From Trypanosoma brucei (Eukaryota): a stretch of 64,000 bases of DNA. The position numbers and the translations under genes are program-made. This document shows positions 1,110 through 35,210 of the stretch, piece by piece. Within the stretch, counting starts at the first letter, position 1; each line of letters starts with the position of its first letter. Location: positions 1,120,001 through 1,184,000 of the forward strand of contig CP000066.1 of the NCBI GenBank assembly GCA_000002445.1, read 5' to 3'. The notes beneath the pieces were generated by a model. The model did not search any database and was not told the origin of the DNA. It saw only the letters and a list, made by a program, of their open reading frames with translations.

Positions 1110-1589
1110 ATGATAAGATATCTTTTGCTTATAAGTCGCCAAGGCAAAGTACGGTTGGCGAAGTGGTACGTTTCCATACCGAACAAAGAAAAAACTCGAA
1201 TTGTTCGTGAACTTTGCCAAACCGCTTTGGGTCGTTCCGCCCGTTTCTCCAACGTGTTGGAGCTCCGCGGCTCCAAATATGTTTGCCAGCGGTATGCGTC
1301 TCTTTATTTTATTGCCTGCATTGACAAGCAAGACAATGAATTGGCAATTTTGGAGATGATTCACCACTTCGTAGAGCTATTGGACCGATACTTTGGCAAT
1401 GTTTGCGAGCTGGACCTTATCTTCAACTTCCACCGGGCATATTTTGTGCTTGACGAAGTTATTTTGGGAGGGGAATTGGAAGACACAAGTAAGAAATCAA
1501 TATTACGGCAGATTGAAATGCACGAGGCGGCAGCGGAGGACACGGAATTATCCAGAGGATCCGGCACAAATTCCTCAAAGGCACGCTAA
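1110..1589 (+). CDS. clathrin adaptor complex AP-1 sigma (small) subunit
   Basis: Translation from the first ATG (MIRYLLLISRQGKVRLAKWY...KRYASLYFIACIDKQDNELAILEMIHHFVELLDRYFGNVCELDLIFNFHRAYFVLDEVILGGELEDTSKKSILRQIE) aligns along its whole length with AP sigma-1 chains (SRQGKLRLQKWY, RYASLYFC, DNEL, VCELDIIFNFEKAYFILDE, QDTSKKSVL). The 28 codons the ORF track adds upstream are probably 5'UTR. Confidence 0.85.
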   Translation: MIRYLLLISRQGKVRLAKWYVSIPNKEKTRIVRELCQTALGRSARFSNVLELRGSKYVCQRYASLYFIACIDKQDNELAILEMIHHFVELLDRYFGNVCELDLIFNFHRAYFVLDEVILGGELEDTSKKSILRQIEMHEAAAEDTELSRGSGTNSSKAR

Positions 1590-1740
1590 AACTCCCCTTC
1601 TTTTCCCTTCCCTTCCCTTTCCTTCCCTATCCAAAGGCGGCTAACAAAAAGAAAAAAAAAGAAGAGCATGAGGAGGAGGAGGAGGAGGAGGAGGAGGGAA
1701 AACAAAAACAAAAACAAACACAAACACACACACAAGGAGG
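1590..1740. repeat. simple-sequence block: (CCCTT)-type polypyrimidine, (GAG)n about 10 units at about 1668-1698, (CA)n/(CAAA)n at about 1700-1735
   Basis: Read directly in the sequence immediately 3' of the AP-1 sigma stop codon. Confidence 0.8.
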
Positions 1741-2645
1741 GTTCGAAATGAAGCGTGTCGCCTCCATTTTTTTTTCTTTTTCCCACCACCACTCTCGCCT
1801 CTGTAGTTGCTGCAGCTTTCTCTTCCCTTCTTTCATCTGTTGTTTTTTCCACCATTTTCTTTCTGTGTGTTTTGCTTCTCTTACAGAAATTAAACTTTTA
1901 TTCCTATTTGTATTGCCTTTTCTTTCTTGTGGAAACGTTCCGTTCACCATCAGAAGTTACTCTTGTTCCTCGCAAAGGTCGCAAAGGATTAACGTGATTA
2001 TTATTATTATCTTTAAAAGGAAGAAAGAGGGAAATAAAGAGAAGGAGAGTCAAATTTCATAGGCAACATCGCGTTAAATATGGACTAACGCGGCGATTAA
2101 GTGGTCAAAAGTTACTCGACCAACAAAGTCAATGGTATCGCCGGTAGCGTCAAAAATAAAAAGTGCATCTCACCGGATCATCCCTCAATAGCGCACCAAA
2201 CAGTCCTCCACGTGAGAGCGGAAGCAAAAGGCAGAAAAGGTGCATGAACAAATGCGGAATAAGCCCCGCGCCCTAATAGCAACAGAAATAGTAAAAATGG
2301 TATCGTCGCCGCCCAAGAAAAAAATTAAATTGTAACTCCCCCCATTCAAAACCGAAAATACGAGAAGATCATAAATAAAACAGCATTCTCACTTTGGCAG
2401 TATCGGCTTTCAAAAGATTCCACAGCTATTCACACAAAAAAAATAAATAAAATTTACACAACCCGTTTTCAAGAATAAAAAACACAGATCTATATAAAAT
2501 CCATCAAAAGCGAAAAAAAAAATAATGAACAAAGAGTAAGGGAAATGCTATACTATCAGCCGCCGCGTCTTTTCCCATAAAAAGAAATCGAGACATAAGT
2601 CTCGCCCCCGTCGCTCTTTAAAAGACCCCTCCCCTTTTTTTCCGT

Positions 2646-3510
2646 GTGGCCCAGGGCGGTGGGGAAACGGAAGGGTGTGTGTTTGTATGCTTTTGGGGCC
2701 GCCTGATTTGTCAGGGTGGCCCAGGGCGGTGGGGAAACGGAAGGGTGTGTGTTTGTATGCTTTTGGGGCCGCCTGATTTGTCAGGGTGGCCCAGGGCGGT
2801 GGGGAAACGGAAGGGTGTGTGTTTGTCTGCTTTTGGGGCCGCCTGATTTGTCAGGGTGGCCCAGGGCGGTGGGGAAATGGAAGGGTGTGTGTTTGTATGC
2901 TTTTGGGGCCGCCTGATTTGTCAGGGTGGCCCAGGGCGGTGGGGAAATGGAAGGGTGTGTGTTTGTATGCTTTTGGGGCCGCCTGATTTGTCAGGGTGGC
3001 CCAGGGCGGTGGGGAAACGGAAGGGTGTGTGTTTGTATGCTTTTGGGGCCGCCTGATTTGTCAGGGTGGCCCAGGGCGGTGGGGAAACGGAAGGGTGTGT
3101 GTTTGTATGCTTTTGGGGCCGCCTGATTTGTCAGGGTGGCCCAGGGCGGTGGGGAAATGGAAGGGTGTGTGTTTGTATGCTTTTGGGGCCGCCTGATTTG
3201 TCAGGGTGGCCCAGGGCGGTGGGGAAACGGAAAGGTGTGTGTTTGTATGCTTTTGGGGCAGCCTGATTTGTCAGGGTGGCCCAGGGCGGCGGGGAAACGG
3301 AAGGGTGTGTGTTTGTATGCTTTTGGGGCCGCCTGATTTGTCAGGGTGGCCCAGGGCGGTGGGGAAACGGAAGGGTGTGTGTTTGTATGCTTTTGGGGCA
3401 GCCTGATTTGTCAGGGTGGCCCAGGGCGGTGGGGAAACGGAAGGGTGTGTGTTTGTATGCTTTTGGGGCCGCCTGATTTGTCAGGGTGGCCCAGGGCGGT
3501 GGGGAAATGG
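2646..3510 (+). repeat. tandem array, 70-bp unit x about 12.4 copies, G-rich on plus strand (consensus GGTGGCCCAGGGCGGTGGGGAAACGGAAGGGTGTGTGTTTGTATGCTTTTGGGGCCGCCTGATTTGTCAG)
   Basis: Exact 70-nt periodicity is visible (ORF-track pseudo-ORFs start every 70 nt: 2646, 2716 ... 3346). Units are about 98% identical, with a few point variants (AAACGG/AAATGG, GTATGC/GTCTGC, GGGCC/GGGCA). Each unit carries four G3-4 tracts. Confidence 0.95.
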
Positions 3511-6500
3511 GCGGGGGGTTGTGAAGTCTTTTATGTGGGCGGTGTTTGGTGCTGGGCGAATTCGGATGTGATTGTTATGCGTTGCTTGTGTTCCTGCGTA
3601 ACCTTATTTTCCCCCTTTTTTTGAGGTGAGAGAAAAGGTTCGGAAAGGGCGAAACATGGAAGGGAAACGGGACTGCCTGGTGTCGGTTGAGCAGTTTTTC
3701 CGGCGAGTTCACTGCTCACACGCGTTTTGTGGGACAGAAAATCCGACAGCTGCCCGGAGGCAAGTGAATCGGGCGCTTGTGTGGATGGCAGGCGGGGATC
3801 GGGCGTCCGGTAAGGACGGTGATGCCGGGAAGCGCGGTCGTTAGGGCCAACGGTCGTGGCGGCGCGGTGGGGGGCGCTTGATCCTTAACTTTGGAAGGTG
3901 CGTCTCCCTTTTTTTTTTGAAGTAAACTTTGGAAGTTATTTTAACCAGGTGGACGGTGGTTGCGCTACTGTTTTAGTTTTTTTTTCTTTATGCTTTTTAG
4001 AATGCTCTTTGCGGCGGGGCGATTGAAAGTCGCCTCGGCTTGGGGGTGCGCTTTTTTTTTTATTATCATTATGCAGGCGGGAAAGCGTTGAGCTTTTCGG
4101 GGGGACGGGCTTCCGCCAAAAGCTCTTGTGGGTGGAGGTGCAGTTTTATAAGGGGCGGCAGCGACAAAGCTGTTTCTAATGCTCCCTCTTTTTTTTTTGC
4201 ATTTCGGTGGCCCTGAGGGTTAGTTCCTCAAAGAAATCCGCTGCAGCAGCTTAATTCATTCGAGCGTCATCGGAGGGACACGGGGGACTTGTATGAGGGA
4301 CGACGGGTTCGGCAAGTGGAGAGTGGCGCCGTCGCACCCTTTTTTCGAAGTCAAGAAGGTGTGCAGAGAAAACCTTTTGAATGGTTTTGGCACCGTTTTG
4401 TTTCTTTTTAGAGGAGAAAGGGGAAACACGGCCCACTTTGACGTGTGGTGTGGCTCTGGGAGAACTCTAACCGCTTATTTTCAATGAAAGCCTTTCCCTG
4501 CTCCGAGTTCCGGCGCGAAAGAGAAGCACGCGTTGGGGTTTGGGAAAGGGGGGTGCAGCAGAGAAGGCTTGGGGAGCATCCTTTCAAAACGTCCCTGCAA
4601 TCCTTCTTGCCCACCGAAATAAAAAATTTCTTCATGACCTTTCCCTAATCCATGTTTTTTTCAGAAAAAATTCATGTATTTTTTTCTTCTTAGAACTTTG
4701 CTTAAATCAGGAGTGCCTTAAATAAAGTAAGGCGCTAACACTTTCGCCGGATTTATTAAAGGGTGTTCCTACCTCAGTTCCCCCAGCTTTGAAACTTTCG
4801 ACTTTCACCAACCCATGCCCCACAAGGGTCGTCAAGTTAGTGATGTAGCGGTTCGAGATGCGCCCCGCCAAGTCGGTGTAAGAAAGGCCTGTGACCGGTT
4901 TGCCAACAACACGAAAGGCGCTAGCGTCAGGCCCGGTTGTTGCCGCCTCTGTTCGTGCTTGAGCCGCCTTGCTTAAGAAATTCGTGGCGGAGACGCTCGG
5001 CTTTTTCTTGTGAAAAGACAAACCCCCTTCCGCGGTGTTGCCCGTTTCGCATCTCCCCGGAACGGCGGAAGTTGCTTGGGGGGGGGGGGGGAGGGCGGGA
5101 TGCCCTGTGCCCGTATTCATCTGCATGCTGCGCTGGTCTTGCGTTCCGTAGTCTTGCCGATTTTGCGTCGGCTTGCTGCTTCCCGCTCCCGTTGGCCGCT
5201 CTGTTCTCTGTTCGACGGACCCCTCACGACCGGTGCTGCAACCTGTTTTTTGGAAGGGCACGTGACGTGCAACGTGCCCGGGACGACACACCCGCATTCG
5301 CCTTATCGGCCGGCGGCCCTTTAGCCGCGCGTGTATGCGGAGGGAGAAGGGGGAGGGGAGGGGATGTGCTCAGAAAGCCGCGGAGGTGCATTGGACGCTG
5401 CCTTTGACCGTGGTGAATTACATTGAGGGGTTCGTGTATTCATCTGGTTTTGGCAGCGCCAGTGGCTATGACAGTCGTTCCTTGGGGCGCATTTTATTGG
5501 GGTCGGGGTGTCAGAGGAATCTTTTCCAATTTGCCGTGCACTTTTCTCACCGCAGGGCATTGCCGCTCCGCTGCACAGGGAAGGTCCCGCTCGATGAGGC
5601 GGGTGGTCTTCTGCCCCCTATAAGAGACGCAAATCGAAGGTCAGCTCAAGTCGAATATTTACTTTCTACGGGCGCCGGGGCAACGGCCTCACCCGTTCTA
5701 AAATGGGGGACTGCAGAACGTTACCGCTCGTTCGGGAAGGGCTGGACGTGGTTGAAGGTCCGAAAACAACGAAAGCTTTGGAAAGTGTAGCGTTTACGCT
5801 GTAGCTTTCGAATATTAAGTAGCCCGCTATGGCGGCAGCCCGTTTTCCCCATAGCTTCAATGAAAGCACGGTAAGATTGGAGCAACCGAGCGGGAATCGG
5901 TGCTCATTAGCCATGGGAAAGTGATGCAAGCTCTCATCGTGATGTGTGGGGCGCCTGCGCGCCAGAGGGCGAAAGCGGGAAAGCGACAGTAGATTACTGC
6001 CCGGAGCGGCGTTTCAAAGTAACCAGTGACGTGGGCTCAATCCGACTGAGACCGGTTAAGGGAGAGCAGTTCCCCCACCGGAACCACTTGCAAACAAGGC
6101 TGCAACGTGAAAGCTGGAAAGGCTGCCGAAATTTTTGACGGTGGTCGTGGATTTGCCTTCCTGCGCACGGCAAAACCGGGGGTGGCGTAGAAAGCATCGA
6201 TCAGTTCGGACGGCGGTAGCATAACGCTAGCGGTGGAAAACGGTTTGGCCAGGGTCTCGGAGACAATGTCCAGCAGGACTCTGAAGGAGGTGAGAAAAGA
6301 CAACTAACGGCGCAGGATGGCCTTGACAACGCCGTTGCATCCGCTGACCGGTAACCGGTGGCCATGAAAAAAAGACGTGGGGCGATGGCGTGCGGACAGC
6401 CGGTGGCAGAAGCTTCCGGTATTTCCCGACGTGGCGGACGATGTGCTTTTGCCCTCCCGCACGTGATTCCGCGCTCCTTTGTGCACGCACCGTCCCCTTC

Positions 6501-7209
6501 CGCCACCAACCGAAGCTCACGGCCAATTTTAAACGGGTCGAAATGCGGTTTCGAAGGTCCCACAGCCGCGCGGCTTCGCGCTAACGAAGAACCTCTATAC
6601 GATCCGATGGCGGATTTTCGGGTGCCACAGAAAACGATATCCCACGCGGGGGAGCAACGCCCAGCCGCCCGCGGAAATTCCGAGGGGCGCTGACGCGCGA
6701 CGGGAGCGCCGTTCGGCGAATGGAACGTCTCCGGGTCCCTCTTTACCTGCGGTCCACACTACCTTCAAAATATTTGCGGGCACCTTCCCGACGAGACCTG
6801 TGCAGACAAAGTTGCAGTTCATCCAACCCAGCTTGAAACACAAAGAAACGAAAAGCAAGCATCTACGAAACCCGCGAAGCAGTGACAGCAATAACGGAGC
6901 AACTCACCCGCAGCAATCTAGGCACAGTAGATGAGTTGAGCCATCTCTTTCTTTCTTTTCAGTTACCTTACGGCAGCCCCAGGTGCACGTCCGCAAGGTA
7001 AACGCTAATAGAGGTCAGAACCATGTCGTATCGGTTGCGACGTACTTCTATCCCTTTTTCTTCGTAGTGTACCGGTCTTCCTTCACCCCATTACCTTACC
7101 TTCGCTCCCTTCCTTCAATCCCCTTTGTGGCGCAGAAGCGCCTTGCGCTTGCCGATGCCAGTCCCAGTCCATATTGAATTCGCAACTCCTCTGCAGTGCC
7201 TTTGGACCC

Positions 7210-10200
7210 CTACATTTCAATACCCTCGGCGTAGTTCTGGTAGCGGTCGTAGAGAACCGTTCGAACGTTCTCCCTGGATTCTGCGATCCGCTTCCGCATG
7301 AAGTCTGCTGCCCACGCTTCACTCTTATGCATCGCGAGGCGCCAGGACAGATCGTGAATTGTCTTTTTGGGCTTAAAGCAAGGAAGACCACTGCTGAGCA
7401 TCAGTTCAACAAGCACACAAATCTCGTGGGCGTATTGTCGAACAGCGAGGAAGCAACGAATCGTCAGGTCCACAAATAGATTGTAGCTCTCCAGATCCAC
7501 TAGAGCTTTTGCGAGGGAGGGGCTTGGTTGCTTCCCTTTCCCTTCATTCACCGGGTACCCCATGAGCTGCGCCATTTCCAGGGTTAACTTGAACGGGGAC
7601 GACTCGAAGTTGATGTCGCCTCCCGGTGAAAGGTCAAACAAAAACCCGAAGTCTATGTGCACCAAGTGGCCATAGGAGTCGATAAGAATATTGCCGTTGT
7701 GACGGTCCTTTATGTTGAGGACGAAAGAAGCGGTGGCATATGAGGCCATGCTTCGGATAAAACACTCCCGAGCGCGATGGAATCTTACGGATTCTGGGTA
7801 GCCGTAGGTCTGTACAAAGTACTCCGAGAGGTTACCTTCCACCAGTTTCCCAATCTGATCACGACTCATTGCCCGGGGAACACACTCGATAACACCACAA
7901 TCCCTCCCGGTGGCAACCACCTTGTACGGATAAAGAAAGGATGGTAGCTGGATGGAGTCAAACACACGGCGGAAGAGCCCTATCAGTTGCAATGCAAGTT
8001 GATCCTGCCTGCAATCATCCCCCATCTTGAAAATGCAGAGCTTTGACGTTACCGCTTCTTTATCCGAGCCGGTCGCCTCTCCTTGTGCATTTTCCCCGTC
8101 CCGACTATTCTGCGGAACGCAGTGAAACTCCACCATGATGGGGCACTTTGCCGCGCTCTGCATTGCACCAGCGGTGTCAGGGCGAAGGGCGACGATTCTC
8201 CAGTTGGGATCTGTGGGCAAATATAAGTGCTGTCCACCGATAGAGTCGTGGAATTCCTTATCGCGCAACCGAAGGCGGAGCCTTCCCTTTCGAAGCGGCC
8301 TCTCGATAGGCATCATTTCTCCAGACAAGGAAATAATTCGGTCAATGAAATTGAACTCACCGTCATGGAAAGCTTTCCTTGAGGCATTGAAGGAGTGCCG
8401 GATCTCCGACGCGAGCTGGGAGCACTTCCGTGCGTGCTCGCTATCTCCACCCCCTTCCGCTTGTAGGGACCAAAGGAGCTGGTGCTCAAACGTTTGGCTC
8501 CTTTTGCACATTTTCTTCAAGAAAGACGGCACGGCCCCGATTGGGTCCTCTGAAAGTATCTGAAGTATTTGAGGGAGGTAAAACGTAAGCGAGTCGCACT
8601 TTTTACACAAAAGGCTGCGAAGGGCGTACGCGGAGACCTGCGGGTACCGAGTCGCATACCGCGCGTGCAGATGGCGGAGGGACTGCACAAGACCACCGTT
8701 CCTGAAGAGGTGGAGCGCAGGATACCCGTTGACCAGCGTTACGCTGTTCAAATAGAGATCCACTGCTCCAGGTATATTGCAGTAGAGCTCTGGATTCTCA
8801 GAGACGATTTGCGCAGCCCAACCCACCACATGTCTGTTGGGAAACCGCGCCACCAACGCAACCAGTACTGCGGGGTCGCTTTCTGACGCCGCCGTGCAGT
8901 GCGATAACCATTCGCCACTGGAAATGGCGTCAAAATAGTCGCGGGACGGCGTTGAGAGGGAATCGGAAGGATGGAGCCAAACGAGGAGTCGATGGTGCTC
9001 GTGTTTGACCAGGAGTTGCAGGAGTCGGATGAGGCTCATTAGCCGTTCCCGCTCAGCGGCAATCAGGCTTTCAATGTCCGTGAAAGTTCCACCCGCAATG
9101 TCTTCACCTATCCTGCGCTGCGCGACACTTCCCACAAGCGTCAGGTTGACAAGGGTGGAATCAGCTGACTTTTCTGGTGAGGCAAAGTCCAGAAACCCAT
9201 CGCTAGAACGTGACAATGCTTTCATGTCCCTGTCCAACATTTCCATAAGTTTTCGCAAGGCCGCTAGTTCCTTCTCCGCGGCCGTGCGGTCCCGCGAGAA
9301 GTACCAAGAAGGCGGCGTCTTTTGAAACCAGTGCATCAAACAGCGATAAAAGCCTTGGCGCAGGGCTCCGACGAAGAAGGCGGGGGTTAGGGCCGGCAAA
9401 CCCTCGCGCGCACGGCACTCGTTTGCAGCTTGTAAATTACGGCAAATGAGACCTATCATCAGGACGCAGCGCGTCATTTCCGAGAAGGACGCATCTTTTG
9501 TGGAGAGCCTGGACGGAGTTTTCACAATCCTCAAGGCGAGTTGCTTTAAAAGGTGGAGAACGGGCGGGACAAATGATACTGGCCCGCCCTCATCGACATA
9601 GCACGCAATTAAAAACTCGGCGAGAAGCTTATGTGGAGAGTTCGTGGCATAATCATGTGAGTAAATGGCCGCATCCCTCCTTAACTGTGGTTTCCTGCCT
9701 GACTCCACTTCGTCAAGGCCTCTCGGTCGGGAGCCGTCAAACAGTCCAACACGATGGGTAATTGTCCACACAAATCCCTCTACAACTTCTGCTAGCAGTG
9801 GGGCTGCAAAGAGCCCCGGTCTCTCAAATAAGATCCACCTCCAGCAACTGATGGCCTTGGCCAGGGCGTCGCTTGAAAACGAACGGATGGGGTACTGCAC
9901 GATGCACCGCAGAAGGCTTATATGCATTGATGTACCAAGCCGCGCGCTCGTCAGGAGCACAACCGCGGAGCAAGCTAGTGTGTCACTTTCATGCAGCTTA
10001 TCTGACAAGGTCTGACCACTAGGTGGGGTACATGTGGACGTCCAGGAACCCCGGTGAACCGTGTCCTCCGCTTCCCCACCTTGGCAACCACGACTAAAAT
10101 CATCCACACCTATTTCACCAGACAGAGCGTTCGTCAACGTCACGAACTGCTGCTCCCTTAGTTGTTTACTCAAACCGAAGGTCTTCACAAGGTCCTCTCC

Positions 10201-13200
10201 CGCTTCCTGCAGGTGCTGAAGCAGCAACTGATCAGCACCACCATGGGTTGCTACCCGAAAGAGTGCCCTAACGTGGCCCTTTGCGTTACTCCTCCTTATG
10301 AGGCTTCGCTCACACATCGGCTTCGACGTTGCCGATAAACCCCCAGCGTTGTGTGCACGAAGGGCCAGGCTTAACCCGATGCCGGGCTCGACCGTGCCGT
10401 ACGTCGGCTGTTCAACGATGAAACGCTCGGCATGTTCCCGCAAGGCGATGGGGGAGCCTTGCTCTGCTAGCTGGGCCCAATGCACTGCAAAAGAGACGGC
10501 ATCACTCAACTGTTTTCGTCGTTCCGGGGATTCCGGATCCGCAGCGACGGCGGGGGGCTCCAACATTTGCTTTGATTGGCAGTAAAGCTCCACCTCTGCT
10601 GCACTTCCCTTTTCAAGCACGCCGATGACGTCCCACAGAAGTGGAAGAGCCTGGCAAGTCCCCACAAACGACGGGAAGGCTGATATAATTTTACTTAGTA
10701 TTTCTTTGGCGGAGCGCCTTACTGATTGAACGGCGAAACCATATAATAAGACGAGTTGTGGTACGTCCGCCTCGATCCGTTTCGCGGCCGTGTCGGGAGA
10801 CGTGGCTTTCAACGCTGAGAGATACCGATTTGTTGCAGCAGCCGTTAGGCACGACGTTGCTGCCCGGAAATCTGCACTAGCGTCGAACTCACAAATTTCG
10901 AACCGGTGGTACTGTGCAATAGTTGAGATGAAGCCGCAGGAAGCTCGGAGGATTTCGAGGGTTGCCAGCGCATGAAAAAGAAAAAGTTCAGAAAACGGCA
11001 ATCGGCGCCCCACCGACGATACACCAGGGCAGCAGTCTTCCAGGTATTGCAGCAACCCCTTTCTGTAAGGCTTTATGGCGTGGCTGTCAGTGCTGTAGTT
11101 GCGCAAATGACGTTCCAAAAGTTCAATATCACTCATGACCTGTTGGTAATCGGTGGATCGCATGCGCAAAAGCTGTGGTGATAAAGAGGCAAGGAGGCGC
11201 ACGCACTTCGTTTGGTTCCAAGACAACACGTACTCACCCCCACGGGGTTGCTTAACATCTGATGATCCCTCCGCACCTTTTCCCTCAGCTTGCGTTAGGA
11301 GCATCACCTTGGAAGTAAAGCCATAATACGTAAGCATCAGCCAATAGGAGCGCAGCTGGGCGGCGTCGCTGTCATCATAGAGTGGAAGACTCATGCTATT
11401 AGGCTGAATGCCACTGTGGTGCATGAAAGAGTCTGTACTTTCCAACTGCTTGAACCTCTGCACGTTATCACGGTAACTCTTGAGACACTGTACGTCTTTT
11501 TCAGGCAAAAGTGTGAGAAGCTGGCAGAGCAGACACAACGGTTGCAGGAACAGCGAAAGCGTCGCAAGGGCCACCTCGCTCATATCGGAACGCATATGGT
11601 GACCGTTCTGCGTTTCCTTCCCACCGTCAATGTTAGTGTCGTAAATAATCCCGGAGCCTGGCCACAAACAGTTGATCATGCATCGGAGGACCGAGTGTAG
11701 TAGGAGACGCAGTACCTTTCCCTCGTTGTTGATCGCCTCAACAAGAGGCGATTTGTTCCATTCATCGCCGGCATCGCCCGAAGCATTGTGGGGTAAATCT
11801 CGAAGCGCCTCACGGACCATCGCAAGGACACGATCATGGCAACGCCGAGTAAGGTGCCAAAAAGCGTCCGCCGTGACCTGTAGTTCGTTGCCTGGAAACT
11901 GTTTATTTGTATGCGACAATTCGATACACCGAGTGTGGGCTCGCAGAGTGTCCTCCACCGTATCAAACAGCAGCTGGGTGTACCGACGTAGACTCTCGTA
12001 AGGCAACGGATTGCACAACGAATGGTGCCTCGACAAGAGAACACGGTTCATCATCTCAAAGCACACAGAAAAGCGCAGCGATACGTCGACGGGACCTTGA
12101 TCCAAACGTCCCTCAACGTTACTCCCTGCTTCATCAGCACCGTCCCCCAACTGCTGCAACCCGTCATTTCGCGTTACAGCATCGTTGACCTCTGTGCTGA
12201 CAAGGGCGCGTATGTAAGCATTTGTGGCACACAGTCCCTGCAAGCAGAGCGCGGCGGTTCGGCTTCTCGTCTCCACATTGGATGATGTGGCAATTCCCAG
12301 ATTTCCCGCCCTTAAAATGCAACGAATGAGTTCATGTGTTACTTGTTCAACACCACCGTAAAATTTGTTGGAAAATTGTATTCTCCTCATTTTGGCCCCT
12401 AAGACCGAGAAGGGATGTGTACTTGTCGACAGCGCTCTGCCATCGGTGGATGCGACGAACGCCAGAACTTTTGCACTGTGCTCCGCAATATCTTGGTGAA
12501 GCGACACCACCGGCCCAGCCGTACCAATCGCGGCGAAAGCACTCTTGGGTAGGAGAAGAAACTTAACGATGTTGCCAATCACCCCGAGGCGAAGGGCGTC
12601 TTCCTCCATGGAGGGCACATACCCCGCATCACCTGAGCCGTTACCACGCTCGTGTTGTTGTCCGCTGTGCGCGTTGTGTTGGCAAGTGCTGTTGACTATG
12701 GCGTAGCACCGAATACGCTCCAGCTCCGCTTGGAGCAAGCTCACCACTACAGCACGCAGGCTGGTCCCATACAATACAAAACTACGATTTTGAACCTTGC
12801 CCCATTTGTCCTCAGAATCCTGAAGAACCGCCCAGACGCCTTCAATGAGCGTTTCGGCTTCGACAACCTCCCTTCGGTCAACAAAATTAGATATTGAACA
12901 GCAGGAAGTAGTTCCCCCATCCCCATTTCCCCCACTACGTGCTGCACTGTCGCCCGGACAGGAAATTGACATCGCAGTTTCCTTCAGCCACCCCATTAGA
13001 AGCCTCAGCGTAGCTGCCACTAATCGCGCCTGGATGCCCTCCCTTCGCTGGAGGCCCCTGAGTATATATTCCGGCCGTAACAGCGTTAGACACCAATAGC
13101 GCAATTTGGTATAGCAGACACCATGAACCGATGATAGTGCTTCCACAAGGTAACACAAAAGCTCCTTGTATGGAGGATCCCTTCGATGTGAGGATGTAAC

Positions 13201-14148
13201 GAGCGTATCCGTTAGGTTGTGCAGGTGCTCTATGAGCTCCGTGCCGAGATCCACGTTGCCGGCTTCTCCAGCGATGGCGATTCCCTCAAGCGCACCGAGT
13301 GCAATGGAGTTGTCTACGCACTCGTCTGCATTTGAGGGAATGCATTGAACGAGGAGTGGATCGACGACATGCGCCCCAAAACCCACTAAACCTTCCCTAC
13401 TCAACTCGACACTACCATCACCAACATCCTTGCCAGCATAAGTAGACGTGGGACAACCCGCCTTCTCCCTTTCCAACCCTCCGCTGCCACTGCTTGCATG
13501 CCGAAGGTGGATGCCACATGCAACAAGTGAAGAGACAAACCCCCGAATGTCAACCCCCAATGAAAAAGTTGTTGCGTTGAGCTGTTGCATAAGTGAGGTG
13601 TACAAAGAAACGCACTCCAGATAGAACGATTTTGTGCGATCAAATGGGAGTGAGCGGCACTCGACCGCTAGAGCCACAAGCGCGATTAGCACTGGAGCAT
13701 TCTTCCCAGAAATACGACCCTGTCCCGCAATCAAATCCTTCGCTTGTGACATCTCGAATAGCTGCGTTACTCGTGGGTGAAGCAACATGTAACCACTGTT
13801 GACAACCGAGAGGGCATGTGTGGTTGGCATGGCACCACCGTGCAGATGCTGGGGCATACTTACACTTGACAAAGAGGCCAACCATGGGTCTGTACGACTT
13901 CTCCCGAACAGCACATCCGCACCCGAATAGCCCTCTTGCATGCACGGGCCCAACAATTCCTCCCTCCCGGAGACGGCGAGCGGCGCGTCGCCCCACCTCG
14001 GACCTCCGCTACCGAGCGCAAGCGCCTGTGGCGAATTATCCGTTGCGGGGGTGTCTAGCGGTTGTCGACGCAGTTGGTAGCCAAGCACACGAGCAAAGGC
14101 GAATGCAGGAGAGTGGCTGACCCATGAGGGGAACCTGATGTCGTCCAT
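7210..14148 (-). CDS. phosphatidylinositol 4-kinase, type III alpha-like (2312 aa)
   Basis: ATG at 14146-14148 verified. The C-terminal catalytic domain has the PI3/PI4-kinase signature motifs GDDCRQD (catalytic loop) and HIDFGFLF (DFG/activation loop). The lipid-kinase accessory region (...LSEYFVQTYGYPESVRF...) and a very long N-terminal HEAT/armadillo-like region are as expected for the approximately 2000+ aa PI4KIII-alpha class. Confidence 0.9.
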   Translation of the reverse strand: MDDIRFPSWVSHSPAFAFARVLGYQLRRQPLDTPATDNSPQALALGSGGPRWGDAPLAVSGREELLGPCMQEGYSGADVLFGRSRTDPWLASLSSVSMPQHLHGGAMPTTHALSVVNSGYMLLHPRVTQLFEMSQAKDLIAGQGRISGKNAPVLIALVALAVECRSLPFDRTKSFYLECVSLYTSLMQQLNATTFSLGVDIRGFVSSLVACGIHLRHASSGSGGLEREKAGCPTSTYAGKDVGDGSVELSREGLVGFGAHVVDPLLVQCIPSNADECVDNSIALGALEGIAIAGEAGNVDLGTELIEHLHNLTDTLVTSSHRRDPPYKELLCYLVEALSSVHGVCYTKLRYWCLTLLRPEYILRGLQRREGIQARLVAATLRLLMGWLKETAMSISCPGDSAARSGGNGDGGTTSCCSISNFVDRREVVEAETLIEGVWAVLQDSEDKWGKVQNRSFVLYGTSLRAVVVSLLQAELERIRCYAIVNSTCQHNAHSGQQHERGNGSGDAGYVPSMEEDALRLGVIGNIVKFLLLPKSAFAAIGTAGPVVSLHQDIAEHSAKVLAFVASTDGRALSTSTHPFSVLGAKMRRIQFSNKFYGGVEQVTHELIRCILRAGNLGIATSSNVETRSRTAALCLQGLCATNAYIRALVSTEVNDAVTRNDGLQQLGDGADEAGSNVEGRLDQGPVDVSLRFSVCFEMMNRVLLSRHHSLCNPLPYESLRRYTQLLFDTVEDTLRAHTRCIELSHTNKQFPGNELQVTADAFWHLTRRCHDRVLAMVREALRDLPHNASGDAGDEWNKSPLVEAINNEGKVLRLLLHSVLRCMINCLWPGSGIIYDTNIDGGKETQNGHHMRSDMSEVALATLSLFLQPLCLLCQLLTLLPEKDVQCLKSYRDNVQRFKQLESTDSFMHHSGIQPNSMSLPLYDDSDAAQLRSYWLMLTYYGFTSKVMLLTQAEGKGAEGSSDVKQPRGGEYVLSWNQTKCVRLLASLSPQLLRMRSTDYQQVMSDIELLERHLRNYSTDSHAIKPYRKGLLQYLEDCCPGVSSVGRRLPFSELFLFHALATLEILRASCGFISTIAQYHRFEICEFDASADFRAATSCLTAAATNRYLSALKATSPDTAAKRIEADVPQLVLLYGFAVQSVRRSAKEILSKIISAFPSFVGTCQALPLLWDVIGVLEKGSAAEVELYCQSKQMLEPPAVAADPESPERRKQLSDAVSFAVHWAQLAEQGSPIALREHAERFIVEQPTYGTVEPGIGLSLALRAHNAGGLSATSKPMCERSLIRRSNAKGHVRALFRVATHGGADQLLLQHLQEAGEDLVKTFGLSKQLREQQFVTLTNALSGEIGVDDFSRGCQGGEAEDTVHRGSWTSTCTPPSGQTLSDKLHESDTLACSAVVLLTSARLGTSMHISLLRCIVQYPIRSFSSDALAKAISCWRWILFERPGLFAAPLLAEVVEGFVWTITHRVGLFDGSRPRGLDEVESGRKPQLRRDAAIYSHDYATNSPHKLLAEFLIACYVDEGGPVSFVPPVLHLLKQLALRIVKTPSRLSTKDASFSEMTRCVLMIGLICRNLQAANECRAREGLPALTPAFFVGALRQGFYRCLMHWFQKTPPSWYFSRDRTAAEKELAALRKLMEMLDRDMKALSRSSDGFLDFASPEKSADSTLVNLTLVGSVAQRRIGEDIAGGTFTDIESLIAAERERLMSLIRLLQLLVKHEHHRLLVWLHPSDSLSTPSRDYFDAISSGEWLSHCTAASESDPAVLVALVARFPNRHVVGWAAQIVSENPELYCNIPGAVDLYLNSVTLVNGYPALHLFRNGGLVQSLRHLHARYATRYPQVSAYALRSLLCKKCDSLTFYLPQILQILSEDPIGAVPSFLKKMCKRSQTFEHQLLWSLQAEGGGDSEHARKCSQLASEIRHSFNASRKAFHDGEFNFIDRIISLSGEMMPIERPLRKGRLRLRLRDKEFHDSIGGQHLYLPTDPNWRIVALRPDTAGAMQSAAKCPIMVEFHCVPQNSRDGENAQGEATGSDKEAVTSKLCIFKMGDDCRQDQLALQLIGLFRRVFDSIQLPSFLYPYKVVATGRDCGVIECVPRAMSRDQIGKLVEGNLSEYFVQTYGYPESVRFHRARECFIRSMASYATASFVLNIKDRHNGNILIDSYGHLVHIDFGFLFDLSPGGDINFESSPFKLTLEMAQLMGYPVNEGKGKQPSPSLAKALVDLESYNLFVDLTIRCFLAVRQYAHEICVLVELMLSSGLPCFKPKKTIHDLSWRLAMHKSEAWAADFMRKRIAESRENVRTVLYDRYQNYAEGIEM

Positions 14149-28264: not shown

Positions 28265-30052
28265 CTACTGCTGCGCTGCTCCGCCACTGTGTGAGCCCCC
28301 TTCATTTGGCTGCCCCGCATCCTCTGTAACAGGAGCAGCGACACCACTCATCTCATCAGCTGGCTCATTACACCTGTTCTGCTCAGCATTAATGAAACGC
28401 GAAAATCTGAAGTGGACAATCGCTGCAGCGATTACTGCCACAATATTGACACCCATCAGTATGAGCATCTGGTTTTTGACACACGAAGGGTTTTTACACT
28501 CGGGTTTCGTACCAAGCTTCTCAGCCTCAGCATCGTACATACCACCGAACATGAAGAGGTTGAGCGCTATCGTTGACACAATTCCGGAGGAAAAGCCGAA
28601 GTTATAGTGCTTTCCCAAATCCTGTGAATACATTATACGAAACGCAAGCACAACACTTCCCCAACCTGCTCCGTTACCCAGCGACCCAAGGAAGAAAGGA
28701 AGGATCAGCGCGTTAGCGGGAAGCAACGCGAAGAGCAGGAAGGCGATGCACAACATCAGAGGGCAAAATGGGAGCGCAATTGTTGTGGGAAACGTTTTAA
28801 GCCCCTCTCGCTGCCGCCGTGTCAGCACCATATCCAGATATCCCATAGACATGCGACCAACAGCACTGCCAACAGATATCATGGTGATATACAGTGTTAG
28901 AGTGGAGCTTTTCTTCTCACCGTAACTTTTGCTCTCATAAATTTGTGCAGCGTTCATCTGCATGACGACCGCAGTACCCCACACGCCGAAGCATGTAAGC
29001 CACATGCACCAAAGATCCACGGTAAGCAAGTGCTGCCAGAAGGACCCGCTGTACTGCGGCAATGGCTTCACCTCGTTCTTCGTTGTAGCTACCGCTGATT
29101 CGGTCACAACATCCTCCAGTGCCTCTCCAATTGTGTCCATATCCGTAGGGCGCACTGGAGTATATCGTCCAAGCCATTGAAACGGCAACGCAACGACACA
29201 AAATGATGCCATCATGAGCACTGCAATAATCGAAAAGGCCAAATAGGCAGCCGGAGGAAGCTTTACATATCCACCAATGAGTGATTGTGTGGTGAGAAAC
29301 AACAGCAGGCTGAGGACGAGTCCCACAGCTGTCTTCATCCTTCTGGGAGGCGCAGGCTGGTTCATGTATAACTGAAGTGTCTGCTGTCGCTTCGTCCACT
29401 CCTCTTCACTTAGCCGTTGCTTCCGCCACGCACAAGGAAAGTACATGGGAAGCCGAATGAGAACGAAGGCAATGAGTGACACGACCACCAACTGTATGGC
29501 AACAAAGTACGCGAAACCCGAGTAGTTGTTTTTTTCCACATCATCGGATGTGGTATCCTTAAACCACCCGTTGAAGTAAGCCATTAGCACTCCGGTACCG
29601 AGACCACCAATTGTCTTGGACACGAGCACAATGTAACCCCTGTCAAGTGGAAACTGCAGCATCAGTGGCATAACAGAACTTACATCCAAGATAGGAAATG
29701 CACAGTATACAAGGGCATTAAAAAAAGACAAAAGGCCAACGCCTGGACTCGCTATCTTTCTGTCGAAGGTGAGACCAAAAAGCAGGAAGCCCAAGAATCC
29801 AAGGAAACCAGCAATTGGCAGGACCACCATCGGACCAGCGTAATCGAACAGGGCGCCGCTGGGAAAACTGAAATACATAATGCAATTGCCAACGGTACTG
29901 ATAGTTGTAACTTCAGTTTGTGTTAAATTGAGTTTTTTCTTCAGGAATGGCGTGAAAATCGAAAAGCAGTATGCCTTTGAGACACCCAACTCCGCATACA
30001 TGCCTGACATCAGCATCCGCATACGGGCAAGGTCATCGACAAGGTAAACCAT
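28265..30052 (-). CDS. nodulin-like major facilitator superfamily membrane protein, array copy A (595 aa; N-term type alpha, C-term type long)
   Basis: ATG verified. About 12 predicted TM segments. The N-terminal domain matches the Nodulin-like pattern (Y-x-F-S...L-x-L-[ST]-Q-[ST]...ISTVG...G...G-x-L-x-D...P). C-terminal tail ...VTEDAGQPNEGGSHSGGAAQQ. Confidence 0.8.
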   Translation of the reverse strand: MVYLVDDLARMRMLMSGMYAELGVSKAYCFSIFTPFLKKKLNLTQTEVTTISTVGNCIMYFSFPSGALFDYAGPMVVLPIAGFLGFLGFLLFGLTFDRKIASPGVGLLSFFNALVYCAFPILDVSSVMPLMLQFPLDRGYIVLVSKTIGGLGTGVLMAYFNGWFKDTTSDDVEKNNYSGFAYFVAIQLVVVSLIAFVLIRLPMYFPCAWRKQRLSEEEWTKRQQTLQLYMNQPAPPRRMKTAVGLVLSLLLFLTTQSLIGGYVKLPPAAYLAFSIIAVLMMASFCVVALPFQWLGRYTPVRPTDMDTIGEALEDVVTESAVATTKNEVKPLPQYSGSFWQHLLTVDLWCMWLTCFGVWGTAVVMQMNAAQIYESKSYGEKKSSTLTLYITMISVGSAVGRMSMGYLDMVLTRRQREGLKTFPTTIALPFCPLMLCIAFLLFALLPANALILPFFLGSLGNGAGWGSVVLAFRIMYSQDLGKHYNFGFSSGIVSTIALNLFMFGGMYDAEAEKLGTKPECKNPSCVKNQMLILMGVNIVAVIAAAIVHFRFSRFINAEQNRCNEPADEMSGVAAPVTEDAGQPNEGGSHSGGAAQQ

Positions 30053-30300
30053 AACTGCAGGGACTGCGGGTCGGTTTGTTCTGAGTGGAAGTGCGCAAGT
30101 AGTAGCTCTATTTTACTCTTTGTGTGGAAACATTTGTCAGGTAAAGAAGAAAAATGAGTAATAAGAGTGTTAGAAAAGGAATCCATAGAGAGGTAAAGGG
30201 AAGCACTGATATGTATCACTGCCGTGTTGCAACGGCTTCGTGACGGAAAAAACAAAGGTTTCGCAGAGACTGGGAAACTGACCACGGAAAACCATTCAAA
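30053..30300 (-). promoter_or_regulatory. conserved upstream block (polypyrimidine tract + AG acceptor) repeated 5' of array copies A-D and of the gene remnant
   Basis: Minus-strand reads ...ccctttacctctctatggattccttttctaacactcttattactcatttttcttctttacctgacaaatgtttccacacaaagagtaaaatagag...ATG. Equivalent blocks at 27732 to about 27975, 32314 to about 32560, 34650 to about 34900, 36969 to about 37215. Absent upstream of copy E. Confidence 0.5.
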
Positions 30301-30561
30301 TAGCGTTTCTAAACTGTCGTGCAGAAAAGAATGAAGTAAAGGTAGGACCGTTGTAGGAAATATATATTTCGTGAATTTGTTAAAAGAAAAAAAAACAACA
30401 TCATAAAAAACGACAGATGGCAACACTACTCATGATAATGAAGCCGCCATTAAAAAAATAATGAAAAAAAAATAACGGTACAACGAAGTTTTGATTATAA
30501 AAGAAACCAAGCATAAAATATAACCCTACTGCACTCCCGTAATGTCACCGTGGTCACCTCC

Positions 30562-32313: not shown

Positions 32314-32861
32314 AACTGCAGGGACTGCGGGTCGGTTTGTTCTGAGTGGAAGTGCGCAAGTAGTAGCTCTATTTTACTCTTTGTGTGGAAACATTTGTCA
32401 GGTAAAGAAGAAAAATGAGTAATAAGAGTGTTAGAAAAGGAATCCATAGAGAGGTAAAGGGAAGCACTGATATGTATCACTGCCGTGTTGCAACGGCTTC
32501 GTGACGGAAAAAACAAAGGTTTCGCAGAGACTGGGAAACTGACCACGTAAAATCATTCAAACAGCGTTTCTAAACTGTCGTGCAGTAAAGAATAAAGTAA
32601 AGGAAGAGCGAAACGTGGCTGCCTGCTCACACGAACAAAACACTCTAAGGTAAAACAAAATCCACCCATCAACCACTAAGAGTGATCAAACGGCACACCC
32701 TCTTGTTTGCAAGAAGCAACACAATGTGGGAGTGAGGAGCAATTATTATATTGATTAGTAGTCACATCAAGGATAAATTCAACGTAACAAGATTTATGAG
32801 ATAGAGGCAAATGCATATTTTCAATTTAGAGTTCAGGTACGGCAACAGCTGTAAAACAACC

Positions 32862-34649: not shown

Positions 34650-35210
34650 AACTGCAGGGACTGCGGGTCGGTTTGTTCTGAGTGGAAGTGCGCAAGTAGT
34701 AGCTCTATTTTACTCTTTGTGTGGAAACATTTGTCAGGTAAAGAAGAAAAATGAGTAATAAGAGTGTTAGAAAAGGAATCCATAGAGAGGTAAAGGGAAG
34801 CACTGATATGTATCACTGCCGTGTTGCAACGGCTTCGTGACGGAAAAAACAAAGGTTTCGCAGAGACTGGGAAACTGACCACGTAAAATCATTCAAATAG
34901 CGTTTTATTTTTACCACAAAGTGGAAGAGAGAAAAAGAAGAGTTAGGAAAAAAAAAACGTTCGAAGACAGAAAAAATAGTAACCCACTAATCACTGAGAG
35001 TGGATATACAACATACTTTTAATACTAAAAAAAAATTTAAAAACTTATTTCTTGAATCGGGCCGCACCCTCACGCAGAAACAACAACCACATCTAACAGA
35101 AAAGAAAACATACGATTTTTAACACAAAGAAGGATAACACACGGTAAGACAGAAAAATACTATGGAAATATGCAAAAAATACTATTTCGTTTTTCTTAAC
35201 CCCCCAAAAA

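What the first reader, a model, noticed from the sequence alone, without database searches (positions are those of the whole stretch)
1590..7209. Convergent strand-switch region lacking tRNA/snRNA genes but with a layered architecture
A plus-strand unit (AP-1 sigma, 1110-1589) and a >56 kb minus-strand unit (from PI4K at 7210 onward) terminate head-to-head. The 5.6 kb between them is organised in distinct blocks. Microsatellites lie at 1590-1740. An A-rich block with 80-85% A+T on the plus strand lies at 2040-2640. The 70-bp G-rich array follows. Then comes a G+T-rich segment with four oligo(T)9-10 runs (3511-4700). Last is a 2.5 kb GC-rich block. Many convergent switch regions in trypanosomatids host pol III genes. 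I could not find any A-box/B-box tRNA pair or T-loop motif here. Termination would then rely on chromatin (base J, H3.V) or on the repeat elements themselves.
Basis: partly seen in the sequence, partly recalled or inferred. Interest (0 to 1): 0.5.

Follow-up and report, generated by a model that had tools for sequence, protein, structure and literature searches.

The report
Ordinary trypanosome transcription termination zone
This 5.6 kb stretch is the gap on Trypanosoma brucei chromosome 3 where two long gene clusters transcribed towards each other both stop; it has no tRNA or other small-RNA genes, as is normal for this parasite, and published mutant data indicate that stopping here depends on the modified DNA base J.

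Summary
The window is T. brucei brucei TREU927 chromosome 3. The convergent junction is real: AP-1 sigma (+, 1110-1589) faces PI4K Tb927.3.4020 (-, 7210-14148), and every ORF of at least 250 aa up to 63906 is on the minus strand.

No tRNA, A/B box or Rfam RNA lies in the gap. The orthologous gaps of T. cruzi, T. melophagium and L. panamensis also have none. This is the rule in T. brucei: only 9 tRNA loci sit in its 64-72 convergent regions.

Most of the layering is real: the microsatellites, the 70-bp G-rich array (12.3 copies) and the four T9-10 runs. The "80-85% A+T" block is in fact 60% A+T.

The gap is not annotation-free. ORF 4707-5297(-) is Tb927.3.4010. It is frameshifted in two sister strains and shows no coding signal, so it is spurious.

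Schulz et al. 2016 list this ORF as nearly silent in wild type and about 11-fold derepressed without base J. That places J-dependent minus-strand termination between 7209 and 5297.

Composition and strain divergence suggest a PI4K 3'UTR at about 5651-7209. Plus-strand polarity runs from about 2640 to 5640.

The array varies from 5.4 to 12.3 to about 36 copies between strains.

Verdict: a known kind of element at an already studied locus. Low interest.

The parts
1110..1589 (+). AP-1 sigma (clathrin adaptor small chain) CDS, the last gene of the plus-strand unit
   Evidence: ORF listed. The protein is identical in T. brucei Lister 427, T. b. gambiense and T. equiperdum and has Pfam Clat_adaptor_s.
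1590..1740 (.). Microsatellite block: (CCCTT)n, (GAG)9 and (ACAAAC)n
   Evidence: TRF. It is part of the fastest-diverging stretch between strains; 1590-2039 differs by 5.3-5.8% substitutions.
1741..2039 (+). T/C-rich tract with plus-strand polarity (T 41%, T9 run at 1767, several AG dinucleotides). It probably serves as the polypyrimidine/splice-acceptor-like signal that sets AP-1 sigma polyadenylation (inferred).
   Evidence: Composition and runs. TA skew +0.32 on the plus strand. Sequence read.
2040..2640 (-). Island of reversed polarity: A/C-rich on the plus strand, so G+T-rich (0.61-0.66) on the minus strand. Its origin is unexplained.
   Evidence: A 39.9%, A+T 60.1%. TA skew -0.31 to -0.41 on the plus strand, whereas all 15 calibration intergenic regions have T>A on the sense strand.
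2646..3507 (+). 70-bp G-rich minisatellite, 12.3 copies, G 44% on the plus strand, with moderate G-quadruplex potential. Copy number differs between strains.
   Evidence: TRF. 5.4 copies in Lister 427 and 34.5+2.0 in T. b. gambiense. The T. equiperdum contig breaks inside it. G4Hunter and PQS counts.
3508..4440 (+). Unique G+T-rich zone with plus-strand polarity. It contains the cluster of four T9-10 tracts (3909-4198).
   Evidence: G+T 0.58-0.72, TA skew +0.13 to +0.40. Runs. Cluster statistic.
4707..5297 (-). Annotated ORF Tb927.3.4010. It is a chance ORF, not a gene, but it is useful as a published expression probe inside the termination zone.
   Evidence: Exact match to XP_843993.1 in a singleton cluster. 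Frameshifted with several stops in Lister 427 and gambiense. No codon-usage signal. No Pfam hit. Not called in the other two annotations. Expression data from PMC4721952.
5078..5091 (+). G14 homopolymer, variable in length between strains. It is the frameshift site of the Tb927.3.4010 ORF and the strongest G4Hunter peak in the interval.
   Evidence: Local excess of strain differences at 4908-5207.
5651..7209 (-). Conserved block with minus-strand polarity next to the PI4K stop codon. Inferred to be the PI4K 3'UTR.
   Evidence: 0.71% substitutions between strains, against 1.0% in the PI4K CDS and 2.7% in an ordinary intergenic region. TA skew turns negative on the plus strand from about 5640. 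No coding signal.
7210..14148 (-). PI 4-kinase alpha CDS (Tb927.3.4020), the last real gene of the minus-strand unit, which spans more than 56 kb
   Evidence: ORF of 2312 aa. Pfam PI4K_N/PI3Ka/PI3_PI4_kinase in orthologous calls. Papers use this gene ID.

Best explanation
This is a conventional RNA polymerase II termination zone, a convergent strand-switch region, on T. brucei chromosome 3. It contains no genes of its own.

SHOWN
- Two polycistronic units converge on the interval.
- No Pol III gene and no credible protein-coding gene lies between them.
- In published RNA-seq, the minus-strand signal over 4707-5297 is nearly absent in wild type and rises about 11-fold when base J is removed. 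Plus-strand signal over the same segment is about 12-fold higher than minus-strand signal in wild type and also rises without J.

INFERRED
- The minus-strand unit ends within about 0.1-1.9 kb of the PI4K stop codon, after a conserved 3'UTR of about 1.5 kb (5651-7209).
- The plus-strand unit processes AP-1 sigma mRNA near 1.6-1.9 kb. A decaying tail of polymerase then runs through the minisatellite and the G/T-rich zone to about 5.6 kb, where the compositional polarity flips.
- Base J, with a smaller contribution from H3.V at this site, marks the chromatin in which elongating polymerases stop.
- The tandem G-rich, T-containing array and its G-run and T-run flank are probably where J is laid down. 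This rests on what is known for J elsewhere, not on data for this locus.
For: - Organism and locus. The AP-1 sigma protein is identical in three T. brucei-group assemblies. ORF 4707-5297 equals Tb927.3.4010 of TREU927 chromosome 3.
- Convergence.
- Absence of Pol III and Rfam genes here and in the orthologous gaps of T. cruzi, T. melophagium and L. panamensis. The junction is therefore ancient and has always lacked Pol III genes.
- No coding content. The codon-usage scan reaches at most 11.5 bits, against 10-23 in real CDS. No Pfam hit. No conserved peptide against other species. Tb927.3.4010 is frameshifted and ORF 5335-5790 is truncated in sister strains.
- Locus-specific published data from PMC4721952, S6 Table and S2 Data. 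Tb927.3.4010 sense log2 RPKM: WT -3.64, J-null -0.17, H3.V-null -2.31, double null -0.67. Antisense (plus strand): 0.02, 1.97, 0.73, 2.36.
- General mechanism: J and H3.V mark convergent regions, and their loss causes readthrough.
- Polarity map and its calibration.
- Strain divergence gradient, with 5651-7209 at 0.71%.
- Plus-strand G4-prone sites are about 16-fold denser in the interval. G4s are enriched at T. brucei termination sites (PMC13316426). J entry sites in Leishmania lie next to G-rich, G4-capable sequence (PMC4344527).
Against: - No J-IP, H3.V/H4.V ChIP, Pol II occupancy or nascent-RNA track for this locus could be examined here.
- The expression evidence is one annotated ORF, measured in polyA+ RNA at very low absolute levels (0.08 to 0.9 RPKM). 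In the S6 Table the "mutant value" column is the same for the J-null and double-null rows. The S2 Data values differ and are used instead.
- PolyA+ abundance reflects RNA stability as well as transcription.
- The 3'UTR assignment and the plus-strand tail are inferred from composition and conservation only.
- Strict four-tract G4 motifs in the array are not conserved between strains: 10 of about 12 units in TREU927, 1 of about 5 in Lister 427 and 8 of about 34 in gambiense.
- T. cruzi and T. melophagium have no tandem array at this junction, so the array is not required for a terminator here.
Confidence: 0.85

Rival explanations
1. The G-rich 70-bp array, with the flanking G-runs and T-tracts, is itself the terminator. 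When the plus-strand unit transcribes it, the G-rich non-template strand and G-rich RNA form G-quadruplexes and R-loops that stall Pol II. Base J would be secondary.
For: - 17 plus-strand G4Hunter>=1.5 sites lie between 2653 and 5510, against 11 in the other 58 kb.
- The G-rich strand has the orientation expected to affect plus-strand transcription.
- G4s are enriched at T. brucei termination sites, and a G4 ligand lowers expression of genes associated with those sites (PMC13316426).
- T. vivax also has a GC-rich tandem repeat about 630 bp after AP-1 sigma.
Against: - Plus-strand polyA+ RNA is still detected 1.2-1.8 kb beyond the array in wild type, at about 1 RPKM, and it rises without J.
- Strict G4 motifs are not conserved between strains, and copy number varies 7-fold.
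- There is no array in T. cruzi or T. melophagium.
- The array cannot explain minus-strand termination, which happens before 5297, about 1.8 kb before the array is reached.
Confidence: 0.15
2. The interval hides a small transcription start region. The G+T-rich plus strand (2640-4440) and the G+T-rich minus strand of the island (2040-2640) would act as a weak divergent pair of GT-rich Pol II promoters. The gap would then be two convergent junctions around a mini divergent one, producing non-coding RNA.
For: - GT-rich sequence on the coding strand, with long G and T runs, drives directional Pol II initiation in T. brucei (PMC5579346).
- G+T is 0.58-0.72 on the plus strand over 2640-4440 and 0.61-0.66 on the minus strand over 2040-2640. 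Ordinary sense-strand intergenic DNA has 0.555+-0.026.
- There are four T10-type tracts and a G14 tract.
- Over 4707-5297, wild-type plus-strand RNA exceeds minus-strand RNA about 12-fold.
Against: - The plus-strand signal is only about 1 RPKM. Readthrough from AP-1 sigma explains it more simply.
- It increases when J is lost, as readthrough does.
- No H2A.Z, H4K10ac or primary-transcript data were available.
- Published analyses treat the locus as a plain convergent region; the distance to the cSSR edge of 592 equals the gene length.
Confidence: 0.07
3. A real gene sits in the gap. It could be a protein gene (Tb927.3.4010, or the 104-107 aa ORF at 1748-2062 that is annotated in T. b. gambiense) or an undescribed small RNA. 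The interval would then not be purely a termination zone.
For: - Tb927.3.4010 is in the reference annotation.
- ORF 1748-2062 stays open in three strains despite three indels and is called in the gambiense annotation.
- 4441-7209 is as conserved between strains as CDS.
- Rfam only contains families that have already been described.
Against: - Tb927.3.4010 is frameshifted in two strains. It has no codon-usage signal, no Pfam hit and about 0.08 RPKM in wild type.
- ORF 1748-2062 is a low-complexity translation of a pyrimidine tract. Its codon score is negative, and at least 6 of its 9 substitutions change the amino acid. One indel lies in a (CAC)n repeat and is in frame by construction.
- No peptide or DNA conservation with other species.
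- No tRNA-type promoter boxes, which trypanosomatid Pol III small-RNA genes depend on (the dependence is from established knowledge).
Confidence: 0.04

Closest known systems
T. brucei convergent strand-switch regions / Pol II transcription termination sites marked by base J, H3.V and H4.V (Siegel 2009; Reynolds 2014, 2016; Schulz 2016)
   Same: - Two polycistronic units meet 3' to 3'.
- The gap of 5.6 kb is within the published size range.
- A silent ORF at the end of one unit is derepressed when J, or J plus H3.V, is lost.
- G-rich, G4-prone sequence is present.
   Different: Nothing essential. At this site J loss has the larger effect and H3.V loss alone a small one: sense -3.64 to -2.31. 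If this is the chromosome 3 entry 1122114-1136077 of Reynolds' S2 Table, small-RNA output is low: 15 RPM, against thousands at siRNA-rich junctions. That mapping is by elimination and is not proven.
Leishmania major chromosome 3 type convergent region, with a tRNA gene at the termination point (Martinez-Calvillo 2004; Padilla-Mejia 2009)
   Same: Convergent Pol II units terminate in a short gap.
   Different: There is no tRNA or other Pol III gene here or at the orthologous junction in four other trypanosomatids. In L. major 14 of 39 such regions carry tRNAs. In T. brucei only 9 tRNA loci do.
J 'entry' sequences and tandem repeats as base J targets (Genest 2015; van Leeuwen 2000, the latter from memory)
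   Same: A tandem, strand-biased, G-rich, T-containing repeat with runs of 3-4 G, like the G-rich flanks of J sites in Leishmania.
   Different: J was not measured here. The sequence is unrelated to telomeric GGGTTA. The G4 motif is not conserved between strains.
VSG-associated '70-bp repeats' of T. brucei
   Same: Only the period of 70 bp and a short GT-rich stretch.
   Different: This unit is 60% G+C with 44% G and has no TAA/TRR triplet runs. It lies in a housekeeping core region rather than upstream of a VSG. No reference VSG repeat sequence was available for alignment.
GT-rich dispersed Pol II promoters of T. brucei (Wedel 2017)
   Same: Long G and T runs and a high G+T fraction on one strand.
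   Different: The location is a termination zone. No evidence of initiation or of H2A.Z was available.

Membership tests
Trypanosomatid convergent strand-switch region (Pol II termination site) | Two polycistronic units on opposite strands whose 3' ends face each other | tested here: met
   AP-1 sigma (+) ends at 1589 and PI4K (-) ends at 7210. All large ORFs from 7210 to 63906 are on the minus strand, and the upstream genes in L001/L002 are on the plus strand.
Trypanosomatid convergent strand-switch region (Pol II termination site) | No genuine protein-coding gene between the two terminal genes | tested here: met
   No codon-usage signal, no Pfam hit and no cross-species peptide. The annotated Tb927.3.4010 is frameshifted in sister strains.
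Trypanosomatid convergent strand-switch region (Pol II termination site) | Enrichment of base J and histone variants H3.V/H4.V | not testable with these tools
   No ChIP or J-IP tracks were accessible. The papers state that both marks occur at convergent regions in general.
Trypanosomatid convergent strand-switch region (Pol II termination site) | Transcripts within the region increase when J and/or H3.V are removed | tested here: met
   Taken from published tables rather than computed here. Tb927.3.4010 sense and antisense RPKM rise in J-null and double-null cells (PMC4721952, S6 Table and S2 Data).
Pol III-gene-containing convergent region | At least one tRNA, snRNA, 5S or 7SL gene in the gap | tested here: not met
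   ARAGORN finds 0. Rfam finds none at gathering score and only noise at E<=10. No A/B boxes.
siRNA-producing convergent region (overlapping dual-strand transcription) | Abundant 21-27 nt sense and antisense small RNAs from an overlap zone | not testable with these tools
   The probable entry in Reynolds' S2 Table shows 15 RPM in wild type with no significant change in the H3.V knockout. The coordinate mapping is by elimination only. No long inverted repeats are present.
T. brucei centromeric repeat region | A+T-rich arrays tens of kb long, flanked by retroelements or rRNA genes (from memory of Obado 2007 and Echeverry 2012) | tested here: not met
   The array is 0.37-2.5 kb, 60% G+C, and flanked by unique sequence.
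GT-rich Pol II promoter / transcription start region | GT-rich sequence with G and T runs on the coding strand | tested here: met
   G+T is 0.58-0.72 on the plus strand over 2640-4440. T10 tracts and a G14 tract are present.
GT-rich Pol II promoter / transcription start region | Transcription initiation with H2A.Z and H4K10ac chromatin | not testable with these tools
   No data were accessible.
VSG-associated 70-bp repeat | A+T-rich unit with TAA/TRR triplet runs, upstream of VSG genes (from memory) | tested here: not met
   The unit consensus is 60% G+C and lacks triplet runs. Its context is a housekeeping core region.

The most novel reading that the evidence does not exclude
The strain-variable G-rich minisatellite (5, 12 or about 36 copies), together with its G-run and T-tract flank, is the DNA-encoded nucleation site for base J/H3.V chromatin at this terminator. 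Its copy number would then tune how far the plus-strand unit reads into the antisense of PI4K. Alternatively it acts as a weak GT-rich promoter for antisense RNA. Either way, termination strength at this junction would be heritable and allele-specific.
Probability: 0.12. Interest if true: 0.5.

Novelty: already known. Interest (0 to 1): 0.15.

Why it matters
It matters little beyond tidying the annotation.
- The locus is one of the 64-72 convergent termination regions of the T. brucei reference genome and is already included in published genome-wide analyses of base J and H3.V.
- Tb927.3.4010 should be treated as a chance ORF, not a gene. It remains a handy readout of readthrough.
- The likely convergence point is about 1.5 kb from PI4K, not at the repeat array.
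- The array is a natural copy-number series across strains. It could be used to ask whether tandem G-rich repeats recruit base J or affect termination.

Tried and rejected
- The homologue search with full-length PI4K returned only the T. brucei protein and distant fungal and animal kinases, because kinase-domain words swamped the candidate list. I switched to AP-1 sigma.
- The T. congolense and T. vivax contigs end 0.5-1 kb after AP-1 sigma, so their gaps could not be compared.
- The T. rangeli contig has adenylate-cyclase fragments in place of PI4K.
- DNA and peptide comparisons of the gap with T. cruzi, T. melophagium, T. vivax and T. congolense gave only chance-level hits.
- The exact look-up of Tb927.3.4010 in the contig index found nothing. 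TREU927 is apparently not indexed there, so I could not get chromosome coordinates.
- Assigning the locus to Reynolds' chromosome 3 entry 1122114-1136077 rests on elimination and gene numbering only.
- The supplements of Kim 2021 do not mention the locus. The supplements of the 2026 G4 ChIP paper are not held.
- I could not establish whether the array is one of the classical T. brucei genotyping minisatellites (MS42, 292).
- The bacterial-type promoter and terminator scan was at chance level and is irrelevant for a eukaryote.
- The inverted-repeat search found only A-run/T-run pairings.
- Rejected: a retroelement or pseudogene origin for 4700-7209. There is no Pfam hit, no repeat elsewhere in the window and no coding periodicity.
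- Rejected: a centromere (see the membership test).
- I ran no further search on the gap ORFs, because the strain comparison already showed frameshifts and stops.

Full report
IDENTITY OF THE WINDOW

The 159-aa protein encoded at 1110-1589 is identical in T. brucei Lister 427 (CM010674.1), T. b. gambiense DAL972 chromosome 3 (FN554966.1) and a T. equiperdum contig. ORF 4707-5297 on the minus strand matches exactly XP_843993.1, "hypothetical protein Tb927.3.4010 [T. b. brucei TREU927]", on a contig of 1,653,225 bp. The window is therefore TREU927 chromosome 3. The neighbouring 2312-aa kinase is Tb927.3.4020, an ID used in the literature. An H/ACA snoRNA named for chromosome 3 (TB3Cs2H1) lies at 39820-39886.

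CHECK OF THE OBSERVATION

The convergent arrangement is real. AP-1 sigma (+) ends at 1589 and PI4K (-) ends at 7210. All 16 ORFs of at least 250 aa from 7210 to 63906 are on the minus strand. The genes upstream of AP-1 sigma in the sister assemblies are on the plus strand. "Head-to-head" should read tail-to-tail.

Features that are present at the stated coordinates:
- The microsatellites.
- The 70-bp array at 2646-3507, with 12.3 copies and 98% matches.
- The four T9-10 tracts at 3909, 3977, 4052 and 4189. They are clustered well beyond chance.

Features that do not hold as stated:
- The "A-rich block" is 39.9% A and 60.1% A+T, not 80-85%.
- The "GC-rich block" is 56.6% G+C, only slightly above the adjacent CDS at 53.7%.

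Evidence on Pol III genes:
- ARAGORN finds no tRNA anywhere in the window.
- Rfam finds nothing at gathering score in the interval, and only sub-threshold miRNA-like noise over the microsatellites at E<=10.
- Consensus A-box and B-box patterns with up to 1 mismatch have no hit in the interval. Their window-wide counts are at chance level.

IS ANYTHING ENCODED IN THE GAP?

I trained a codon-usage log-odds scan on the window's own genes. It scores 10-23 bits per 300 nt in AP-1 sigma and PI4K. Across the gap it stays at or below about 5 bits, with one bump of 11.5 bits at 5390-5689. The ten longest stop-free translations have no Pfam match. No peptide or DNA similarity to the orthologous gaps of other trypanosomes was found. 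No part of the gap is repeated elsewhere in the window.

The individual ORFs fare as follows.
- Tb927.3.4010 is frameshifted at the poly-G tract in both Lister 427 and gambiense, with several downstream stops. Neither of those annotations calls it.
- The ORF under the 11.5-bit bump (5335-5790) has a premature stop in both sister strains, and most of its substitutions change the amino acid.
- ORF 1748-2062 is called in gambiense and stays open in all three strains. However, it is a low-complexity translation of a pyrimidine tract with a negative codon score.

I conclude that the gap has no credible protein gene.

EVIDENCE FROM ELSEWHERE

The AP-1 sigma / PI4K convergent junction is conserved in three other species:
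- T. cruzi, with a 3.8 kb gap. AP-1 sigma is tandemly amplified there.
- T. melophagium, with a 1.9 kb gap.
- One L. panamensis assembly, with a 2.2 kb gap.

None of these loci has a tRNA or an Rfam RNA. The gap sequences are unrelated to each other. Only T. vivax shows another tandem repeat, a 120-bp GC-rich one at the end of its contig. T. cruzi and T. melophagium have none.

Within T. brucei the 70-bp array has 5.4 copies in Lister 427, 12.3 in TREU927 and 34.5+2.0 in gambiense. The T. equiperdum contig breaks inside it.

PUBLISHED DATA ON THIS LOCUS

Schulz et al. 2016 (PMC4721952) list Tb927.3.4010 among genes changed more than 4-fold. Sense RPKM goes from 0.079 in wild type to 0.885 in J-null cells (Q=0.03), and Q=0.006 in J/H3.V double-null cells. 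The "distance to cSSR edge" is 592, which is the gene's own length. They therefore place the convergent region immediately 3' of this ORF.

Their S2 Data give these log2 RPKM values:

Strand over 4707-5297 | WT | J-null | H3.V-null | double null
Sense (minus) | -3.64 | -0.17 | -2.31 | -0.67
Antisense (plus) | 0.02 | 1.97 | 0.73 | 2.36

In wild type the minus-strand unit is effectively finished before 5297. A low plus-strand signal, about 12 times the minus-strand signal, still crosses 4707-5297. Both depend mainly on base J.

The general model is laid out: J and H3.V mark convergent regions, and their loss causes readthrough.

Reynolds et al. 2016 list three chromosome 3 convergent regions. 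Only the entry at 1,122,114-1,136,077 is compatible with this locus lying at about 1.0 Mb in the shorter gambiense chromosome. That entry has 15 small-RNA RPM in wild type, which is low. This mapping is an inference.

IS THE LACK OF POL III GENES UNUSUAL?

It is not. T. brucei has 66 tRNA genes in 26 loci on eight chromosomes. Of these loci 34.6%, that is 9, lie in convergent regions (PMC2695483). There are 64 such regions (PMC3607257) or 72 (PMC4721609). Roughly six in seven therefore have none.

I calibrated a polarity signature on the 15 intergenic regions of the minus-strand unit. The sense strand always has T>A (mean skew +0.17). Its G+T fraction is 0.555+-0.026. A>=9 runs on the plus strand, which are T runs on the sense strand, outnumber T>=9 runs 26 to 6 there.

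Applied to the gap, the signature gives four zones:
- 1740-2039 has plus polarity.
- 2040-2640 has strong minus polarity. This island is unexplained.
- 2640-4440 and 4890-5640 have plus polarity, with G+T up to 0.72.
- 5640-7209 has mild minus polarity.

The compositional convergence point is thus near 5.65 kb, not at the array. This agrees with the RNA-seq asymmetry over 4707-5297.

Substitution divergence between strains falls steadily across the gap:

Region | Substitutions between strains
1590-2039 | 5.3-5.8%
2040-2645 | 3.8%
3508-4440 | about 2%
4441-5650 | 1.24%
5651-7209 | 0.71%
PI4K CDS (comparison) | about 1.0%
Ordinary intergenic region (comparison) | 2.7%

I read 5651-7209 as the PI4K 3'UTR. 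This is an inference.

G4Hunter>=1.5 sites on the plus strand number 17 between 2653 and 5510, against 11 in the remaining 58 kb. Strict four-tract motifs in the array are not conserved between strains.

MECHANISM

Shown: the convergent units, the absence of genes, and J-dependent silencing of the distal minus-strand segment.

Inferred:
- Polymerases of the minus unit stop soon after the PI4K 3'UTR.
- Polymerases of the plus unit fade across the array and the G/T-rich zone.
- Base J, with some help from H3.V, defines the stop chromatin.
- The tandem G-rich repeat and its flanks are plausible J targets, by analogy with G-rich J entry sites in Leishmania and with G4 enrichment at T. brucei termination sites.

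Rivals: an intrinsic G4/R-loop terminator, a cryptic GT-rich promoter, or a hidden gene. Each is less likely, for the reasons given in its entry.

VERDICT

The element is a standard, previously analysed kind at a locus already covered by published datasets. Novelty: already known. Interest: low.

Noticed in passing
window 39820-39886 (-): H/ACA snoRNA TB3Cs2H1 (Rfam RF01545, 91 bits, E=2.6e-17) in the intergenic region after the transporter array. It is the only Rfam hit in the window.
   Followed up: no
window 28265-39289 (-): Five tandem genes, alternating between 595 aa and 583/585 aa. Both types match Pfam Nodulin-like (MFS-type transporters).
   Followed up: partly
L007 199-10504; L008 250-18347: In T. 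cruzi (PRFA01000010.1) AP-1 sigma is amplified into a tandem array of at least ten identical 167-aa copies with a period of about 1.96 kb, directly upstream of the same convergent junction. T. brucei, T. melophagium and Leishmania have one copy.
   Followed up: no
L010 vs L011 (L. panamensis NC_025875.1 vs CP009398.2): The two assembly versions disagree on the orientation of the two-gene block that contains AP-1 sigma relative to PI4K and the 1256-aa gene. In one version AP-1 sigma converges on PI4K; in the other it converges on the 1256-aa gene. This is either an assembly error or a real inversion between strand-switch regions.
   Followed up: no
L005 11113-11461 (T. vivax SOPI01000050.1): A 120-bp GC-rich tandem repeat starts about 630 bp after AP-1 sigma and runs into the end of the contig. 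It is unrelated in sequence to the T. brucei 70-bp unit.
   Followed up: partly
window 2040-2640: A 600-bp island whose strand composition is the reverse of its neighbours: G+T 0.61-0.66 on the minus strand, with A10 and A8 runs on the plus strand. There is no ORF, no repeat and no known element. The cause is unknown; an old inversion is possible.
   Followed up: partly
window 1748-2062 (+); L002 10638-10961: A 104-107 aa low-complexity ORF over the pyrimidine tract stays open in three strains despite three indels, and it is annotated in T. b. gambiense. It is probably spurious.
   Followed up: partly
window 5078-5091: A G14 homopolymer whose length differs between strains. It creates the frameshifts that break Tb927.3.4010 outside TREU927.
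   Followed up: yes
L012 9771-11069 (T. rangeli MKGL01000394.1): In T. rangeli the region downstream of AP-1 sigma carries adenylate-cyclase-like fragments on the minus strand instead of PI4K. Synteny at this junction is therefore not universal.
   Followed up: no
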